Source of the DNA: Trichomonas gallinae
Lineage: Eukaryota
Assembly (NCBI GenBank): GCA_008369845.1
Contig: MRSU01010805.1
Location: forward strand, 1-45,515
Direction: 5' to 3'
Length of the DNA stretch: 45,515 bases
Translations under genes and position numbers: made by a program
Notes under the pieces: model-generated
The model's input: only the letters and a program-made list of their open reading frames with translations
Databases searched by the model: none
Told to the model about the DNA's origin: nothing
Shown here: positions 15,970 through 44,880 of the stretch, in pieces
How the letters are laid out: each line of letters begins with the position of its first letter
Numbering within the stretch: the first letter of the stretch is position 1

Positions 15970-17184
15970 ATGGAACATGTATTATTCAACTTCATTCTTA
16001 TCACGGCCTCTATGCTGATGGTTAGTTTTATGGGGCTAGAATTGGCCGTGTTAAATATACCAGATTTCCGATTGCAATTTATCAAGCATTTTTATTGGAG
16101 GCCAGAAAGAAGTTTACATAATTTCACAGAAGTACCGGCAAACTACAGCCATCCTGATATATTCATCGATATGCCAATAAATGGATCCTATCCTGGACTA
16201 AATAATTATACCTATTTCGATATGTATGACTCTACAGATGAAACTAAAGAAATCAATATTGTATACAAGAACCCTTTATACCATTTTATACAAGCTTACA
16301 ATTGCTACGTCAATTTTTATGGATCATTAATTTTCCGTGATTGCAAATTCTTTCACGGCGACTTATATAAAGATCGCAGACAAATCAATCCGTACAAAGT
16401 TATAAGACATTACCCACATATCCTTTGCATTGGCTATGGTGAATGTGATCACAATTTCGGTCATGCTCTCGAAGACATAGCCCAGCCGCTCCTATTCTTC
16501 TTGCATTATTATCCAAAGGAATTGCAGAAAAACGCATATTTTCTATACAACGGCTACCCTCCAGTAATGGATGTGATTATTGGTTTACTAAATATACCAA
16601 AGAGTCGAGTGATTGTTGTCAACAAGCACAGCTGGCTTTCATGCGATATAATTTCGTCTATTGTAAATCCAGTTAGCTTCATTAATGCTTTCGGAATTCA
16701 TACAAAAAGATTGCAAATGTTCCTGCATGAGAAATTCGGTCTCAGCAGGATCAAACCAACGCGATACGTGTTCATGAATAGAGTTTACAAACGCCCAAGA
16801 CACATATTAAATTTACCTGAAATTTTAACACAAACTAAATTAACGTATCCTGAGTATAATTGGGAAAATCAAACAGATATATACTCATTGAGGGAAGCAG
16901 CACCGGTTTTTGCTTCAATCAAATTCATGTTTACACCAACAGGATCAAACTGCGTCAAAGCATACGTAATGCATTCATTCTCGTGCATTGTTATCGCAAC
17001 ATGTCATTGCGGAGACAAAAGCATCGCTGCTGTAATATCGAATTGTGATATTTTTTGTCTAATGTACAAAGGAATTCCTGGATTTCACCATGATAATGGT
17101 GGAAAGGAAGTCAACGTGAATGAAGCACTGAAACATATTGGTCGAGGACTTCAAACACTTAAAGATCACAAAATACCTCTTTAA
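15970..17184 (+). CDS. glycosyltransferase family 61 (DUF563)-like type II membrane protein
   Basis: 404 aa with an N-terminal signal anchor. NFGHALEDI, YVFMNR...RHILNLPEI and FASIKFMFTPTGSN resemble the GT61 NxYH..D, R..R.I.N..E and F.....I.PHGAG blocks. Confidence 0.7.
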   Translation: MEHVLFNFILITASMLMVSFMGLELAVLNIPDFRLQFIKHFYWRPERSLHNFTEVPANYSHPDIFIDMPINGSYPGLNNYTYFDMYDSTDETKEINIVYKNPLYHFIQAYNCYVNFYGSLIFRDCKFFHGDLYKDRRQINPYKVIRHYPHILCIGYGECDHNFGHALEDIAQPLLFFLHYYPKELQKNAYFLYNGYPPVMDVIIGLLNIPKSRVIVVNKHSWLSCDIISSIVNPVSFINAFGIHTKRLQMFLHEKFGLSRIKPTRYVFMNRVYKRPRHILNLPEILTQTKLTYPEYNWENQTDIYSLREAAPVFASIKFMFTPTGSNCVKAYVMHSFSCIVIATCHCGDKSIAAVISNCDIFCLMYKGIPGFHHDNGGKEVNVNEALKHIGRGLQTLKDHKIPL

Positions 17185-17543
17185 GAGTCCTTTGTGATAT
17201 ATATAAGTCCATATCAATATGGATTTAAATTGTTTCTTTGTAAAAATGATAATATTGTTGATTCATTAAAATAATTTGCAAAATAGATTGAATTAATTTA
17301 GATAATAAAAGTACTAGAGCAAAAGACTTCATTAAAACATGATGAGATAGGATCAAAATTATTTTTAATATTTACGTGACAAATAAAATAAACTACATGA
17401 CAAAAAAAAATAAATTAGGCGAATCAAAACCTTCACCTTTTGTTAACATTGTTATAAGAAAAGTGAAATTGTTAAAATGTTTGTTTGATATCTATAAAAA
17501 TAAAAATATATTAGCGATAAAAGCGGTTTTTTTAGAAAAAAAA

Positions 17544-18663
17544 ATGAATGAAGATTTGAGGAAAGCAGCATTTAGTTGTCAGAGAAACAACCTTACTCTT
17601 CTTCAAAATCTCGTTCCTTCTCATGTGAAAGTTAGTGATTTGATACCACAGTTCATCATATCTTTATAATAAAATTAAATCTATATAGCAGATCGAATGT
17701 TCCTCTTATTTGTATTGCCGCAGCGTACGGATCTCTTGATTGCGTTAAGTATCTTGTGAATATGGGTGCGAATATCGATGCCACTGATAATTCAATTCAT
17801 CATTTTTTTATGGATCTAGCGCTATTCATTGGTCAGCGTTAGCCGGTTACGATAAAGTTCTCAAATTCTTAATCGAAAAGGGAGCTAAAATAACATATTC
17901 TCCTTTATTAATTGCAGCTCGCTATGGAAGACTCGAAGCAGTTTCAGTACTCTTAGATTTCGGTATTGATATGGTGTCCGTCGATCCTGTCGGTCGTACG
18001 GCACTTCATCTCGCAGCATGGTTCGGACATAATGATATTGTTAAGCTTTTATTGGCAAAAGGCTCTAAACCAGATGTTTTAGATAACTCTGGTCGTACAG
18101 CACTTCATCTTGCAGCTTGGTTTGGAAATGTTCCTGCGCTGCAAGAATTAATTGGGAAAGGCGCGCCATTGAACGTACAAGATAAGTCTGGAAATACAGC
18201 GTTGCACCTTGCTTGTCAGAATAACCACAAGGAAGTTGTAACAATCCTTTTAAACGCGGGCGCTAATACAAAACTGAAGAATATCCTCGGATTAACAATT
18301 TTAAACATCGCAGAAGCAGATGATAAGCCAGAAATTCTCGAAATCCTCCAGCAGAAAGAAGGAGAAGATACAAAGCATCGCGGATTAATCGTCGACAAGA
18401 CAATGCTCCACGAGCAAAGGTCCATGCAGAAGACGCTCGATGAGATTACGTCCGCACAGGAAAAGCGATCACAAGACATACATATGCTGCGCGAAAAACT
18501 TGATGCACAAGGACAGCGCCTAATATCGATCAATACAAGGCAGAACGAGCTTAAGCGGCAAATAGAAGAAATGGAAGATGTTGCAAATCAAATCGCGGCG
18601 AAGATCTCAGAATTAATTCCGAAGAAGTCTTCGAGATTCACAATGACTCATATACTAAAATAA
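17544..18663 (+). CDS. ankyrin-repeat protein with C-terminal coiled coil, split into three frames (putative exons 17544-17650, 17668-17794, 17812-18663; 361 aa)
   Basis: Ankyrin repeats continue upstream of the ORF-track start (17971): GSSAIHWSALAGYDKVLKFLIEKGA in the same frame, and NVPLICIAAAYGSLDCVKYLVNMGANIDATDNS in another frame. The ATG at 17544 follows an A run. 1120 nt minus 2x17 nt = 1086 nt = 361 codons plus stop, with no internal stops. Confidence 0.85.
17651..17667 (+). other. putative 17-nt non-canonical intron-like element 1 (GTTCATCATATCTTTAT)
   Basis: Removal joins frame 1 (…DLIPQ) to frame 2 (IKLNLYSRSNVPLICIAA…) and destroys the TAA at 17667. It is 14/17 identical to element 2 and both are preceded by CA. 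Exact boundaries are inferred. Confidence 0.6.
17795..17811 (+). other. putative 17-nt non-canonical intron-like element 2 (ATTCATCATTTTTTTAT)
   Basis: Removal gives DATDNSGSSAIHWSA, in exact register with sister repeats DVLDNSGRTALHLAA and NVQDKSGNTALHLAC in the same protein. Confidence 0.65.
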
Positions 18664-18760
18664 CTTCACTTATTTATTATATTCTTACTCAAATAATTGC
18701 GATTTTTTGTTTTTTTTCGAAAATGATAATTATGACAAATAACAAAATTATTTAATAAAT

Positions 18761-21700
18761 TTACAACATAATATGATTGTTATTGCAGAAGTCCTTTGCT
18801 CTGTTGTAGCCTTGGAGCGCGGCAGACTTGATGTAAGCGGCAGCTGTTGCCTGGTCCTTCTGGACTCCGGTGCCAGACCACAGCATCTTTCCGTACTGGA
18901 ACATGCCGCGTGCATTGCCTGCGTCTGCTGCCTTCTTCGCGTAGGTTGCGCAGCCTGTCATGTCCTTCGGAGTGCCCTCCCAGCCTGTGGCAAGGAGTTG
19001 CGAGTAGTGGATGCAGGCATCTTGGTCTCCTCTGTCTGCAGCCATCTTGTAGAACCTGGCGGCTGATGATACGTCCTTGGGGATTCCGTTGCCTGTCTGG
19101 AGAGTGACGGCGTAGTTGTACATTCCGAGGGTGGAGCCCATCAAAGCGGCAGCTCTGAAGCACTCAGCAGCGCGGACTGGATCCTTGCGGCAGCCAAGTC
19201 CTTCTGCAAGGAAATGGCCGTAGCTGCTCAATCCATCGCAGTCCTGCTGATCAGCGGCCATCTTGTAGTACTTCAAGGCACCAAACAGGTCCTTCTCGAC
19301 GGTCCACATGTAGTAGGCTGCTGCCTGCATCGCCTTGACGTGGCCTCTGTCAGCAGCAAGAATGTATGCGTGCTGGGCATCAGCTGGATTCGCTGGAACT
19401 CCAAGGCCGTTCTTGACGATGTTTGCGAAGTTGTACATTGCTTCGACGTTGCCTGCCTCGGCTGCCAGCTTGCACATGTAAGCGGCCTTGCGAAGATCCT
19501 GGCGGCATCCTTCGCCGTTCGTCAAAAGCTTTGAGCACTCCAGCATTGCCAGTGCGTGTCCGTGATTTGCTGCGTCTAAGTAGTAGACAATCGCCTTGGA
19601 GATGTCGCTCTTAGTGCCGAATCCTCTTGCCAAGTAGTTGCCGCACTGGAACTTCGCTTCGACATGGCCTAAGTCGGCGGCCTTCCTCATGTACTTAGCG
19701 GACTCCTGGTCGCTCTTCGGGTTGGACTCAGTTGCCAGAGCAGTGGCAACATCGTACATCGCCTCGATGTCACCTGCGTTCGCCCTGTCAATCATCTCCT
19801 TTGTGGCGATTGTGCAGACCGGAATCTTGCTGCCCTGGAACTGCATGACTTTCAGCTGTGGTGCTTGGTGCGGGGATGGCGCTGGGGCTGGTGGTGGCGG
19901 TGGCGGTGGGACTGGTACAGACTCCTTCTTCATCTCGAATGAGCTGGAGCGTGTCTTCACGTAAGGAGTCTGTGCAGGCATTTGCGGTGTTTCGTAGAAG
20001 ACGTCTCTTGATTTAGACATCTGGAGCGGGCTGCCTGCCGGCCCTCCTTTGCTGAAAAAACTGAAGTTCAACTGCTGTGGCTTTGTCTTTTGCTGCTGTT
20101 GCGAGAAATCTAAGAACATCGGCTGGTTAGCTGGCGTAGATTTGGATTGCAGCTGGGGATTCGAGTTCATCATCGCGAATGGGTCGAAGTTGGGGCCGAA
20201 CCTGACTGGGTTCTCCTGCGGCTGATTAGACTGTGGCTGTGGTGAAACCGGAGCAGGAGGGTTAAGGAACGGATTGAACGGTGTCTGTGACTGTGGTGAT
20301 GTTGGAGCGCTGGGTACCGGTGAGTTAGGCAAGGCTAAGTCGGATGGAGACTTAGGGAACTGGTTATTGTTAGGTCCAGCCTGCGGGCTCAAGACAGAAG
20401 GAGACTGATTGAATGATGGGTTGAATACAGACTGCTGTGAGTTGAGAACTGATGGAGGCTGGACGAGGAAGGAGGACTGTGGAGTGTTGACTGTAGCAGG
20501 CTGGTGTCCAACTTGGCCCTGCTGAGTGTTGTAGCCAGGTTGCTTCGAGTTGTAGGACGCCTGTTGCGGCTTGTTTGCAGACTGCTGTGTGCCGTAAGCT
20601 GATGATGTCGAGCCAAGAATTGGCGGAACAAACGGAGCAGGGCTGTACGGGCTTGGCTGCGGTGTGGCAATCATAGAAGACTGAGTTGATATGGAAGCAG
20701 CTGGCGGAGGATTGAAAATCATAGAAGACTGAGGCGTTTGATTAGTTATGGATGCAGCAGGTGGAGGATTGAAAATCATGGAAGACTGAGATGTCTGATT
20801 TGATCCGGATCCTGGTGGGGAGATGTAGCTTGCGGACTGCTTTGGACTGAGAGGCGGATTAAATTGTGATGAACTTGACAACGCGAGATCGAACGAAAAA
20901 TCCGATGATTTTGGCTGATTCTCTTGTCTGATCTTCTTAAGAAGTGGCTCTGCTTCAGTAATTCCGCCTTTTACAGCGATTTCGAGATATTTTTCAGCTG
21001 TCTTCAAGTCTTTTTGACCGAATTCGCCCTCATAGCAGTACTTGCCGAGGGTGTAAGCGCATTGCATGTTCTTTTTGTCGGCCATCATTGTTAACAATTT
21101 CTTGGATTTCGCTTGATTTTTCTCTACACCGTCGCCATCGATGAGCATGCGTGAGAGCATTAAGATCGCGCCTGCAATATATGATTTTGCGGCCTGAATA
21201 AAATATTCTGCCGCCATAACTTTGTTGCTGTTGACGATTTCACCCTTGTAAAGCGCCAATCCGCATTCGTATTGCGCTTCTGGGTGTCCTCCATCAGCAG
21301 CTTTCTTTAAAAACTTAATTCCAGTAAATTGGTCATATTTTGTGACTTTTCTGTCCATGATCAATTTGCCGAGAGAATAGCACGCATCGATGTTATTCGA
21401 TTGTGCCGCACGTTCGAATTCAGTGCAAGCGTTTTCGTATTCGCCGTGTTCCATATAAGCCAAACCCGCCTTGTAAGGATCTCCGAGAGATTTCACCGTA
21501 ATTGTGTTGTCTGCGTTCATCACTTTGCCAATGTATGCTTTGTATTGTGGAATGTTTGTATCTCCCATAAATTCTGTATCATCAAGAATGTGTCTATAAA
21601 TTTGCTCAAATGTTGGGCGGTCCTGCGGGTCCTGCTCCCAGCACTTCTGAATGATCTCAGCATAGAATGGAGGACATGTGTCTGGAATTTCGGGTCTTTC

Positions 21701-42268: not shown

Positions 42269-43524
42269 TTAGAAATCATCTTTTTCCGTAGGCTGGTTGG
42301 AGCCAGGTAGAAGCTCAATTGGCAGGGAATCTACTCGTTCTATTATTTCCTCATATTTCTTCTGCTTCTCACCAATGGTAGGATAAACCTGTTCGTAATT
42401 TGATAATTTTACAGCTCTTTGTCGAGATTCTTCTATATTTCTTATAATATTCGGGTTATTCGATAGAAATGATTGCCAAGATTCACTCAACCAGTTGTGA
42501 AATCTAAGAGAATAAGCGAGCTGTAATGCTTCTATAGGAGCAGCAATGGAAATAGCATCTCTTATCATTGATACTTTCATTCTTCTTTCTGGTCCACGAT
42601 GGTATTCTAAGTTTGGCCTATAGTTCACTTCTATAACGTGTGGATGCAGATTTTGATCGAGCAAAATATCAAAGCCAAATACTTGGAAGCATCTGGGTAG
42701 TATTGTTGGAGGACATGCTCTTGCAATTCCAGTCTTCATATAGTTATGTGCTGATATTATTGTTAAAATAATAACATTATCAATCTCCGACCATAATTTG
42801 TTGATATCGACATTGCATTCTTGTTCCATTCTCTTAAAAGTATCCGAAAGCAGTCTTGATATATCTGCAAATTTGTCTAATTCTGGATTATATTTATTTA
42901 ATGTAACATTTGTGATTTGCGAAAAAACTGAATTTGCATTAGTCTTATCTGAGCAAAATCTGGCAAGCCCATCCCTGTATATATATATTTGAAGGGGTTC
43001 TATAGAAGTGACCAATGCGTAAACGCGCAAATCGAACTTTGTGTTGTCCAAAGTGAAAGATTCGATGTATTCTTGAGCTACGCTCAGCTGATTATCTGGT
43101 GGATATTCAGTTCCTGGTTTTAAAATTGTGATTCCTTGGCCTAGCGAGCCAGAATCGGGCTTAATTATCCACGAATGCGTTCCTCTCTTTATTGCACGTA
43201 TAAGTGCTGAATTTTTGAATGGTAATATATAAGATTTCGGATAAAAAGAATATAATTCTGGAAAATATTCTGAAATCTTCTGCAAACACCTCGTAAGCGA
43301 TGCTTTTCTGCATAGTACGTTTGCTGATGGTATCCTATTGACAATTTGCCAAATATTTAAATTCGAAAAATAATCTGCATCTTTAATTGAGTCTGTCCAA
43401 ACTAAAACAGCGCAAGGGTCGTAGTCCCTGACCTGAATGCCAAGTTCCTCAATTGCTTCTTTGACTGATTTGAAATTTTTGTGTGTGCTGATGCAAAGGT
43501 TGGACACTTTTTACTATCTGCCAT
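42269..43524 (-). CDS. tubulin-tyrosine ligase-like protein (TTLL6/7/11-like), with a 1-nt frame disruption near the start
   Basis: IVNRIP..LCRK, WIIKPDSGSLGQGI, VAQEYI, KFDLRVY, GLARFC, QITNVTLNK, CFQVFGFDILLD and VIEVNYRP. The ORF track starts at a GTG (43507). The nearest ATG (43524) is out of frame. Confidence 0.88.
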
Positions 43525-44037: not shown

Positions 44038-44880
44038 ATGATGAGTGAGAAACTTCGTCTTGTCTTTCCACAGTGGCAATGTGCTGAAGCATACAACTTT
44101 GGCCTGATGAATCCCGACATTGAAACTAATATCTCGTGCAAGAGCTATGTACTGGGCTCGTGAGTAATTAATTGCCTCTGCCCACCCGAAAACATTCCAG
44201 TATCGCAGGATGAATCTAAGGAGGTATGTGCTACAGAAAAAGGTATTTTTGCATACAAAGCAAATAAAAAGCAGCTTCAGGCAACTCTGGACATCCTGAA
44301 TTCCAAAAAGTCAAAGAAAGTAACTATAGGCGGCGATTGTGCTGTCATCTTAGCACCATTCACATATTTGGCGTCTCAATATCCAGATGATGTTGCAATT
44401 TTGACAGGCATCCAGGCATCAATGTACTATGTGATCCATACACGGGTTTCTACGCAATGGTCTTAGCGCAGTGCTTCGGTATTGGCGATGAAGTGATTAT
44501 AAAATTGCTGCCTAAATCAATTGACCCAAAGAATGATTTGATTGTTGGTTTGGTTTCATTGAGCCAGCAGAAGAATCTCGCAAGAAACTTGGCATTGAGT
44601 ACATAACATCAGATGTTGCCAACAAAAGCTCGAAAGAGATTTTGGAGTGGATCAAGATGTCAGGAAATAAGAAGATAGTGATTCACTTTGATTTGGATGT
44701 ATTAGAACGAACTGTGCTCAACATCCAACATCTTGTTGGGCCAAATCAAACTGGCCTGACAATAGATGCAGTTGCATGAATCATCCGTGATGTTTTGAAA
44801 ACTTTGATCTTGTTGGTTTAACTATTGCAGAGTCTATTTCACGTGAGTTAATCAAGATTAATCAACTTATGTACCTTAAT
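44038..44880 (+). pseudogene. decayed arginase/ureohydrolase-family gene of bacterial type
   Basis: Manual translation: MSEKLRLVFPQWQ...SYVLGS*...VTIGGDCAVILAPFTYLASQYPDDVAI / DRHPGIN..DPYTGFYAM...LIVGL / KKLGI...ILEWIK..G.KKIVIHFDLDVL...GLTIDAVA*IIRDV / FDLVGLTIAE. Two TGA stops (44161, 44777) and about three frameshifts (near 44400, 44555, 44795). Confidence 0.88.

What the first reader, a model, noticed from the sequence alone, without database searches (positions are those of the whole stretch)
17651..17811. Two matching 17-nt non-GT-AG elements interrupt an ankyrin gene: candidate novel ultra-short intron or recoding system
Seen: the ankyrin gene lies in three frames. Each frame switch holds almost the same 17-mer, GTTCATCATATCTTTAT (17651-17667) and ATTCATCATTTTTTTAT (17795-17811). 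They are 14/17 identical, and both are preceded by CA and end in TTTAT. Deleting both yields a stop-free 361-aa ORF from ATG 17544 to TAA 18663. Junction 2 then reads DATDNSGSSAIHW, in exact register with the protein's own repeats DVLDNSGRTALHL and NVQDKSGNTALHL. The flanking coding sequence shows no other decay. Known: described trichomonad spliceosomal introns are GT-AG with a conserved CTAAC branch motif close to the 3' AG. These elements have neither an AG end nor CTAAC. At 17 nt they approach the shortest known introns (15-16 nt in Stentor, 18-21 nt in chlorarachniophyte nucleomorphs), which are GT-AG. Inference: two independent frameshifts at the same motif with the same length are unlikely by chance. 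The motif sits in different codon phases (after position 2 of a codon versus between codons), which favours RNA-level excision over codon-dependent ribosome slippage. I am not aware of a description of this element class.
Basis: partly seen in the sequence, partly recalled or inferred. Interest (0 to 1): 0.92.

Follow-up and report, generated by a model that had tools for sequence, protein, structure and literature searches.

The report
Rule-breaking 17-base introns in Trichomonas
A gene of a Trichomonas parasite holds two 17-base inserts that are kept in DNA but missing exactly from two likely-RNA assemblies, so they are likely an undescribed, extremely short kind of intron that lacks the usual end and branch signals and would have slipped past published intron surveys.

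Summary
Confirmed and strengthened. The window is a Trichomonas sp.. An independent DNA-type contig keeps both 17-mers. A transcript-sized, likely-RNA contig lacks both exactly, and a second study's likely-RNA contig lacks element 2, the only one it covers. Orthologues are colinear with the excised product. All 26 of 26 strain substitutions in the spliced frame are synonymous. There is no microhomology at either junction. Orthologues of other parabasalids break at the element-2 position, with decoded 91- and 46-nt inserts that start RTT and end AY. T. vaginalis and T. musculus annotations are truncated. The donors match the trichomonad type-B donor (element 1 fully), but there is no CTAAC and no AG. 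IRE1, bulge-helix-bulge, U12 and inverted-repeat tests were negative. RNA-level excision is about 0.92 likely. The enzyme is unresolved: spliceosome 0.5, nuclease plus RtcB 0.3. Ten literature searches found no description, and both recent T. vaginalis surveys filtered on GT-AG motifs. No raw RNA reads were seen.

The parts
17544..17650 (+). Exon 1 (coding part) of an ankyrin-repeat plus coiled-coil gene; ends in phase 2
   Evidence: Colinear with the N-termini of P0003, P0153, P0154, P0155 and P0147; strain change at 17648 is synonymous
17651..17667 (+). Intron 1, 17 nt, GT...AT; donor GTTCAT matches type-B GTWYWD; no CTAAC, no AG
   Evidence: Kept in X1, absent from X2; X2's junction equals a clean removal at shift 0 only; donor test
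17668..17794 (+). Exon 2, 127 nt
   Evidence: Colinear with orthologues; present in X2; strain change at 17776 is synonymous
17680..17691 (+). Acceptor-like stretch inside exon 2 (8 of 12 letters as in the type-B 3' block); would end a 38- or 41-nt GT-AG intron but is not used in X2
   Evidence: retained in X2; its removal would delete residues conserved in orthologues
17795..17811 (+). Intron 2, 17 nt, AT...AT, phase 0; position shared with longer inserts in other parabasalids
   Evidence: Kept in X1, absent from X2 and X5 as one 17-letter gap; orthologous inserts decoded
17812..18663 (+). Exon 3 (coding part): remaining ankyrin repeats and coiled-coil tail
   Evidence: 24 of 24 listed strain changes synonymous, the stop included
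17971..18663 (+). 230-aa ORF from a late Met, which is what gene callers and the T. vaginalis G3 annotation report instead of the full gene
   Evidence: P0001; P0121 = EAY16771.1 / KAI5490822.1
18656..18659 (+). TAAA, likely polyadenylation signal; X2's contig ends at 18669
   Evidence: Sequence; UAAA as the T. vaginalis signal from PMC13548475
17532..17564 (+). Start-codon region that can pair with either intron (weak, post hoc lead)
   Evidence: Duplex -11.0 and -10.4 kcal/mol; shuffle p about 0.03 each; rank 1 of 18 start regions for both

Best explanation
The two 17-mers are kept in DNA and absent from likely-RNA contigs, so they are likely introns cut precisely from the pre-mRNA, most likely by the trichomonad spliceosome acting on a derived class that keeps a type-B-like donor (RTTCAT) but has replaced the CTAAC branch/AG block with a U-rich run ending in AT. 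Shown: presence in DNA, exact absence from transcript-sized contigs, frame restoration, purifying selection on all three exons, and donor similarity. Inferred: that X2 and X5 are RNA; that orthologous inserts of 46 and 91 nt are the same class; that intron 1 is a Trichomonas-lineage gain, perhaps copied from intron 2; and that T. vaginalis has the same introns. Untested: the enzyme and the chemistry. Unspliced RNA would give a 41-aa peptide, and RNA keeping only intron 2 a 93-aa one, so making the full 361-aa ankyrin protein would depend on both cuts. I put excision from RNA at about 0.92 and the spliceosome as the enzyme at about 0.5.
For: Excision. X1 (DNA-type, 3792-nt contig over the whole stretch) keeps both. 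X2 (1082-nt contig, 17554-18669, depth 43, no cover of either flank) has 34 gap letters, 17 at each site. X5 (another study, 275 nt, depth 2.8) has the same 17-letter gap at 17795. X2's split gap at site 1 equals a clean removal on X1's allele, at shift 0 only. X2 differs from X1 at 5 sites and from the window at 20, while the window and X1 both keep the elements. 26 of 26 coding substitutions are synonymous, 5 of 5 upstream of the late Met, against 22% of all possible changes (34% of transitions). P0003, P0147 and P0153-P0155 are colinear with the product. In the T. musculus cluster, long contigs give 209- and 153-aa calls and a 1231-nt contig gives 369 aa. Spliceosome. Element 1 matches GTWYWD fully (1.2% of its shuffles do; 0.5-0.7% of positions in the window and gene) and element 2 differs only at +1. 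3 of the 6 type-B donors in PMC13548475 Table 2 begin GTTCA. The decoded 91-nt insert starts GTTYTA, also a full match. Variable length at a fixed position, U-richness and a penultimate A are intron-like. A U2 spliceosome removes non-GT-AG introns in Fritillaria borealis (PMC13326754, Introduction).
Against: No CTAAC lies in 17544-17960, whereas the published Trichomonas introns carry the branch block (one T. vaginalis exception, TTAA for CTAA) and all 63 T. vaginalis ones end in AG (PMC12316389). The adenosines shared by both elements are at +5, +8 and -2, none at a usual branch distance, so a standard lariat is sterically doubtful (inference). Element 2 and the decoded 46-nt insert start with A, and the 46-nt one also fails the donor at +5. 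The RNA status of X2 and X5 is the tool's guess, both are contigs rather than reads, X5 is under depth 5, and X2 and X5 share two alleles that X1 lacks, so they may be one lineage. No DNA run of the X2 or X5 strain was laid. Intron 1 rests on one run. P0003 is continuous on a 3506-nt contig yet nests among insert-bearing orthologues, so the intron is lost or spliced there. Orthologous inserts are back-translated from protein calls, not read as DNA.
Confidence: 0.5

Rival explanations
1. The introns are removed without the spliceosome. A protein endonuclease (the tRNA splicing endonuclease or an unknown nuclease) cuts both ends and an RtcB ligase joins the exons, as in XBP1/HAC1 or tRNA splicing but with another nuclease.
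For: Tiny size, no branch motif and no AG. T. vaginalis has four RtcB genes (PMC8718801, passage). XBP1/HAC1-type introns also vary in length at a fixed site (recalled). Both elements can pair with the gene's own start region, as the yeast HAC1 intron does with its 5' UTR (recalled); this is weak and post hoc.
Against: IRE1 is listed as absent from excavates including T. vaginalis (PMC3218828, passages). No CNG|CNG at any of the 4 cut sites, and the bulge-helix-bulge central helix pairs at 1 of 4 and 2 of 4. No shared fold at the two sites. A type-B-like donor in 2 of 4 known or decoded inserts, and RT...AY ends in all that can be read, are not expected of a structure-guided nuclease.
Confidence: 0.3
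2. No splicing. X2 and X5 come from a lineage whose DNA lacks both elements, and strains that keep them make the protein by ribosomal bypassing or frameshifting, or carry a dead gene.
For: X2 and X5 are only guessed to be RNA and share two alleles absent from X1. No same-strain DNA was laid. Several orthologues are continuous on contigs longer than an mRNA.
Against: X2's contig stops at the transcript's likely ends while X1 runs on. It would need two exact losses within about 0.5% divergence from X1 (5 sites). Window versus X1, both with the elements, shows only synonymous coding changes, so the gene is not dead. The two sites are in different codon phases. Exact double loss is itself best explained through a spliced cDNA.
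Confidence: 0.08
3. The gaps are reverse-transcriptase template switches or assembler artefacts.
For: Only contigs were seen; X5's is at depth 2.8.
Against: No microhomology or direct repeat at either junction. The same junction appears in two studies, it is the only form in a depth-43 contig, and both gaps restore exact colinearity with orthologues.
Confidence: 0.03
4. Ordinary explanation: a 38- or 41-nt GT-AG intron at site 1 and a one-base homopolymer error at site 2.
For: Both GT-AG introns restore the frame and the 41-nt one ends in an acceptor-like stretch. The window has another frame break at a short A-run, in a TTL gene.
Against: They would delete 7-8 codons that orthologues keep and that X2 keeps. 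X1 has the same T-run length at site 2. An added base would leave a 6-residue insert that no full-length orthologue has.
Confidence: 0.02

Closest known systems
Trichomonas type B spliceosomal introns (23-28 nt; GTWYWD-N7-TCTAACH(1,2)AACAG; PMC6260720, PMC12316389, PMC13548475)
   Same: Same genus; short and T-rich; donor matches (GTTCAT 6 of 6, ATTCAT 5 of 6). Ankyrin genes often carry one near the 5' end: 1 T. vaginalis and 7 T. stableri entries of 25 nt with first exons of 96-116 nt.
   Different: 17 nt; no CTAAC, no AG; one starts with A. The elements stop where the branch A of a 25-nt type B intron would stand (nt 18).
Stentor (15 nt) and Bigelowiella nucleomorph (18 nt) tiny introns (lengths as cited in PMC12316389)
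   Same: Length range
   Different: Those are GT-AG with a branch A near the 3' end (recalled); these end in AT.
Non-GT-AG introns of Fritillaria borealis removed by the U2 spliceosome (PMC13326754, Introduction and passages)
   Same: Precedent for a major spliceosome accepting non-canonical ends
   Different: There most introns are non-canonical and U2AF is duplicated. Here they are a hidden minority beside strict GT-AG introns, and a 17-nt size is not reported in what I read.
U12-type (AT-AC) introns, and Giardia AT-AC/CT-AG introns
   Same: Purine-T start and tolerance of a non-G last base (recalled)
   Different: Donor matches RTATCCTT (recalled) at 2 of 8; no branch consensus; far shorter.
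IRE1/RtcB splicing of XBP1/HAC1; tRNA and bulge-helix-bulge introns; SOS splicing (PMC12779559, listing only); euglenid nonconventional introns (PMC12501133, listing only)
   Same: Short or non-GT-AG pieces removed exactly from RNA; a frame shift controls the protein (XBP1/HAC1)
   Different: No CNG|CNG loops, no bulge-helix-bulge, no terminal inverted repeats; IRE1 reported absent in excavates.

Membership tests
Intron (sequence removed from RNA, any mechanism) | Present in DNA, exactly absent from the transcript | tested here: met
   X1 keeps, X2 lacks both, X5 lacks the one it covers. Contigs only; RNA status guessed by the tool; strains not matched.
Intron (sequence removed from RNA, any mechanism) | Removal restores a conserved, selected reading frame | tested here: met
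   26 of 26 synonymous
Trichomonas type B spliceosomal intron | Donor GTWYWD | tested here: inconclusive
   Element 1 matches fully; element 2 has A at +1
Trichomonas type B spliceosomal intron | Branch/acceptor block TCTAACH(1,2)AACAG ending in AG | tested here: not met
   No CTAAC in 17544-17960; both end in AT
Trichomonas type B spliceosomal intron | Length 23-28 nt | tested here: not met
   17 nt; range from PMC12316389
Trichomonas type A spliceosomal intron | GTAYGT ... ACTAACACAYAG, 56-196 nt | tested here: not met
   No type A or B match anywhere in the window
Spliceosomal intron in general | Lariat intermediate and snRNP dependence | not testable with these tools
   Needs lariat RT-PCR or spliceosome depletion
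U12-type intron | Donor RTATCCTT (recalled) | tested here: not met
   2 of 8 for both elements
IRE1-spliced intron (XBP1/HAC1) | CNG|CNG in 7-nt hairpin loops at both cuts (recalled) | tested here: not met
   0 of 4 cut sites
IRE1-spliced intron (XBP1/HAC1) | IRE1 encoded by the organism | not testable with these tools
   No genome held; reported absent from excavates (PMC3218828)
Bulge-helix-bulge / tRNA-type intron | 4-bp helix between two 3-nt bulges that hold the cuts (recalled) | tested here: not met
   Central helix 1 of 4 and 2 of 4 pairs; no Rfam match up to E 1 in 17100-18800
SOS splicing / euglenid nonconventional / transposon-derived intron | Terminal inverted repeats or end-pairing stem; target-site duplication | tested here: not met
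   End pairing 3 of 6 and 1-2 of 6; no duplication of 2-8 nt

The most novel reading that the evidence does not exclude
Parabasalids, including the human parasite T. vaginalis, run a second mRNA splicing route that needs neither a branch point nor IRE1 (an unknown nuclease with RtcB, or a branch-free spliceosomal reaction). It removes a hidden class of RT...AT introns of 17 to about 90 nt, so some genes now annotated as truncated or as pseudogenes are intact, regulated genes.
Probability: 0.3. Interest if true: 0.97.

Novelty: new variant of a known kind. Interest (0 to 1): 0.9.

Why it matters
At 17 nt these are shorter than any described Trichomonas intron (23 nt, PMC12316389) and close to the shortest known anywhere, yet they lack the AG and branch signals that the other tiny introns keep. 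If the spliceosome removes them, they are a natural, two-per-gene test of how small and signal-poor its substrate can be. If it does not, they mark a new route of mRNA splicing in a lineage reported to lack IRE1. Two recent dedicated T. vaginalis intron surveys kept only junctions with GT-AG/CTAAC motifs, and STAR's default treats gaps under 21 nt as deletions (recalled), so this class would be invisible to them. The T. vaginalis and T. musculus orthologues are annotated as truncated proteins. Public RNA data already allow a genome-wide test, and a parasite-specific splicing step would be of interest as a drug target.

Tried and rejected
No whole genome is held, so the motif could not be scanned genome-wide. 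The search for related loci in metagenome contigs returned 80 loci, all generic ankyrins at 40% identity or less and none orthologous; no orthologous DNA was read. Of 10 runs listed (no holder on record as RNA), 4 were laid. X3 covers only 18076-18598 and says nothing about the junctions. X4 and X6-X10 were not seen. Three look-ups of earlier findings returned nothing. Rfam gave no match in 17100-18800. Folding gave no structure shared by the two sites. GT-AG introns of 38 or 41 nt at site 1 were rejected. My first decoding of P0123's insert as 40 nt was corrected to 46 nt once P0153 fixed the exon end. For P0004/P0124 a 28- or 31-nt GT-AG intron is formally possible but would leave about 20 F/N-rich codons inside an ankyrin repeat, so it was set aside, not excluded. 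Reading P0143's N-terminus as a 17-nt GT...AT intron was considered and dropped, because it puts a stop in the upstream frame (worked by hand). The likeness of TTCATCAT to the reverse complement of snoRNA box C (recalled) has no further support. Arginase-like frames at 44164-44779 gave no Pfam hit up to E 0.01.

Full report
Observation. Agreement this close occurs in 4e-6 of random window pairs and 1.3e-4 of composition-matched shuffles. Neither junction can slide: shifts of 1-4 nt either way change the product, and no 2-8 nt duplication flanks either element. One alternative needed testing: GT-AG introns of 38 and 41 nt from the same GT at 17651 also restore the frame.

Organism and gene. The window's 230-aa late ORF clusters at 90% with T. 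vaginalis G3 EAY16771.1 / KAI5490822.1, itself annotated as 230 aa from the same late Met. The window is therefore a Trichomonas sp.; the best DNA holder is a bird metagenome. The protein is ankyrin repeats (Pfam Ank, Ank_2) plus a tail that looks coiled-coil by eye. Its function is not known from these calls. Full-length orthologues P0003 (368 aa) and P0147 (369 aa) and the N-terminal fragments P0153-P0155 align without gaps across site 1 when exactly 17 nt are removed; P0003 and P0147 do so across site 2. The 38/41-nt introns would remove 7-8 conserved codons.

DNA against likely RNA. Of 10 runs listed, 4 were laid on 17400-18760. X1 (guessed DNA) spans everything in one 3792-nt contig with 33 other letters and no indel at either element, so it is an independent strain and the elements are not assembly errors. 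X2 (guessed RNA; 21 million letters, longest record 8041) has one 1082-nt contig from 17554 to 18669, depth 43, no cover of either flank, ending 13 nt after the start of a TAAA, with 34 gap letters. Seventeen are at 17795. The rest, shown as 3+2+12, equal a clean removal of 17651-17667 on X1's allele at 17648, and only at shift 0. X5 (guessed RNA, another study; 275 nt, depth 2.8) covers site 2 only and has the same 17-letter gap. X3 does not reach the junctions. Limits: these are contigs, RNA status is guessed, strains are unmatched, and X2 and X5 share two alleles that X1 lacks. Still, X2 differs from X1 at 5 sites and from the window at 20, and the window and X1 both keep the elements.

Selection. 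One search lists 39 substitution rows; 13 lie outside the coding sequence and were dropped. All 26 of the remaining 26 are synonymous in the spliced frame, including 5 of 5 upstream of the late Met, one each in exons 1 and 2, against 22% of possible changes or 34% of transitions. The gene is alive, and exons 1 and 2 are read in the frames that only removal connects. Retention would give 41 aa, or 93 aa if only intron 2 stays.

Other parabasalids. Gene calls on ENA contigs break at site 2. P0154 runs off exon 1 and P0004/P0124 run into exon 3 from another frame; the two readings are compatible over 11 of 11 residues (0 of 20,000 random stretches) and decode to a 91-nt T-rich insert starting GTTYTA and ending AAY. 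P0153 with P0123 (compatible over 11 of 20 residues, so related but not identical; 4 of 20,000 random) decode to 46 nt starting ATTTC and ending AAY. P0155 shows a third, longer read-through from the same point. The 3' ends assume colinearity with orthologues. These three lineages are continuous at site 1, so intron 1 is likely a gain in the Trichomonas line, and its likeness to intron 2 suggests copying or a tight local consensus (inference). On a tree of 27 rows the insert-bearing proteins fall in one clade (100/98) that also holds the continuous P0003, sister to P0123 (98/92), which means loss or an RNA-derived contig. In the T. musculus cluster, contigs up to 37.5 kb and the NCBI annotation give 209- and 153-aa calls, a 1231-nt contig gives 369 aa, and P0145 runs out of frame one repeat later, suggesting a further intron. 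That T. vaginalis has the introns is inferred from its truncated calls (230 and 264 aa); its DNA was not seen.

Mechanism. The donors resemble type B: element 1 matches GTWYWD (1.2% of its shuffles), element 2 differs at +1, 3 of 6 type-B donors in PMC13548475 Table 2 begin GTTCA, and the decoded 91-nt insert matches too. That, with variable length at a fixed site, is why I favour the spliceosome (0.5); F. borealis shows that a U2 spliceosome can take non-GT-AG ends (PMC13326754). Against it, there is no CTAAC or AG, and the shared adenosines at +5, +8 and -2 leave no ordinary branch geometry. The elements end where the branch A of a 25-nt type B intron would stand, which I note without an explanation. 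The rival is a nuclease with RtcB (0.3): T. vaginalis has four RtcB genes (PMC8718801), but IRE1 is reported absent (PMC3218828), and tests for IRE1 loops, bulge-helix-bulge, U12 donor and inverted ends were all negative (those motifs are recalled). Both elements pair best with their own gene's start region (rank 1 of 18; p about 0.03 each; against the whole pre-mRNA p is 0.05 and 0.13), a weak post hoc lead.

What is known. PMC12316389 (parts 1-3 of 7, passages, 3 supplements searched): 63 T. vaginalis introns, all GT-AG, and 81 intron-containing T. stableri genes; shortest 23 nt; junctions without the motifs discarded; its 12 ankyrin rows have introns of 25, 56 or 72 nt. PMC13548475 (parts 1-3 of 7, passages, 5 supplements searched): motif-guided; it mentions six 'motif-unassigned' historical introns whose sequences I did not see. 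TTCATCAT occurs in neither paper's searched supplements, and I could not resolve the T. vaginalis gene id to check by name. Passages only: PMC6260720, PMC6679479, PMC13735942, PMC10944700, PMC5009743. Abstract and outline only: PMC13149111. Ten searches found no description of such introns in parabasalids; subscription papers and bioRxiv supplements are outside this library.

Verdict. Real, functional and very likely spliced from RNA (about 0.92). It fails the defining tests of every intron class tried, so I file it as a new variant of intron and not as a member of any of them. It would be categorically new if the chemistry proves branch-free or spliceosome-independent (0.3). Interest 0.9. The main gaps are raw RNA reads, matched strains and a genome-wide count.

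Noticed in passing
window 43524-42269 (-): A tubulin-tyrosine ligase family gene (Pfam TTL, E 9e-52) whose ATG at 43524 is out of frame with the long ORF. The break is at a short A-run near 43510 with no RTTCAT motif; likely a one-base assembly error or a real frameshift. A 20-nt GT...AG stretch there would also restore the frame but fits neither type A nor type B.
   Followed up: partly
window 44164-44779 (+): Three overlapping frames that by eye resemble a decayed arginase-family gene (motifs recalled); no Pfam hit up to E 0.01.
   Followed up: partly
P0057 (Histomonas meleagridis paralogue): The annotated protein lacks about 28 residues starting within two codons of the site-2 position relative to P0141. 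This could be a mis-modelled intron at the same site.
   Followed up: no
P0145, P0127/P0143, P0067, P0131: Further gene calls in this family enter or leave the frame at other ankyrin-repeat linkers, some through F/Y/I-rich read-through, hinting at more introns of this kind in the family.
   Followed up: partly
PMC13735942 (Tritrichomonas foetus genome): Protein-guided prediction gave 7715 putative introns that the authors set aside as unsupported; worth re-examining for RT...AY ends.
   Followed up: no
PMC12316389 S2 Table: Eight ankyrin genes of T. vaginalis and T. stableri have a 25-nt type B intron after a 96-116 nt first exon, near where intron 1 lies here; possibly a shared origin.
   Followed up: no
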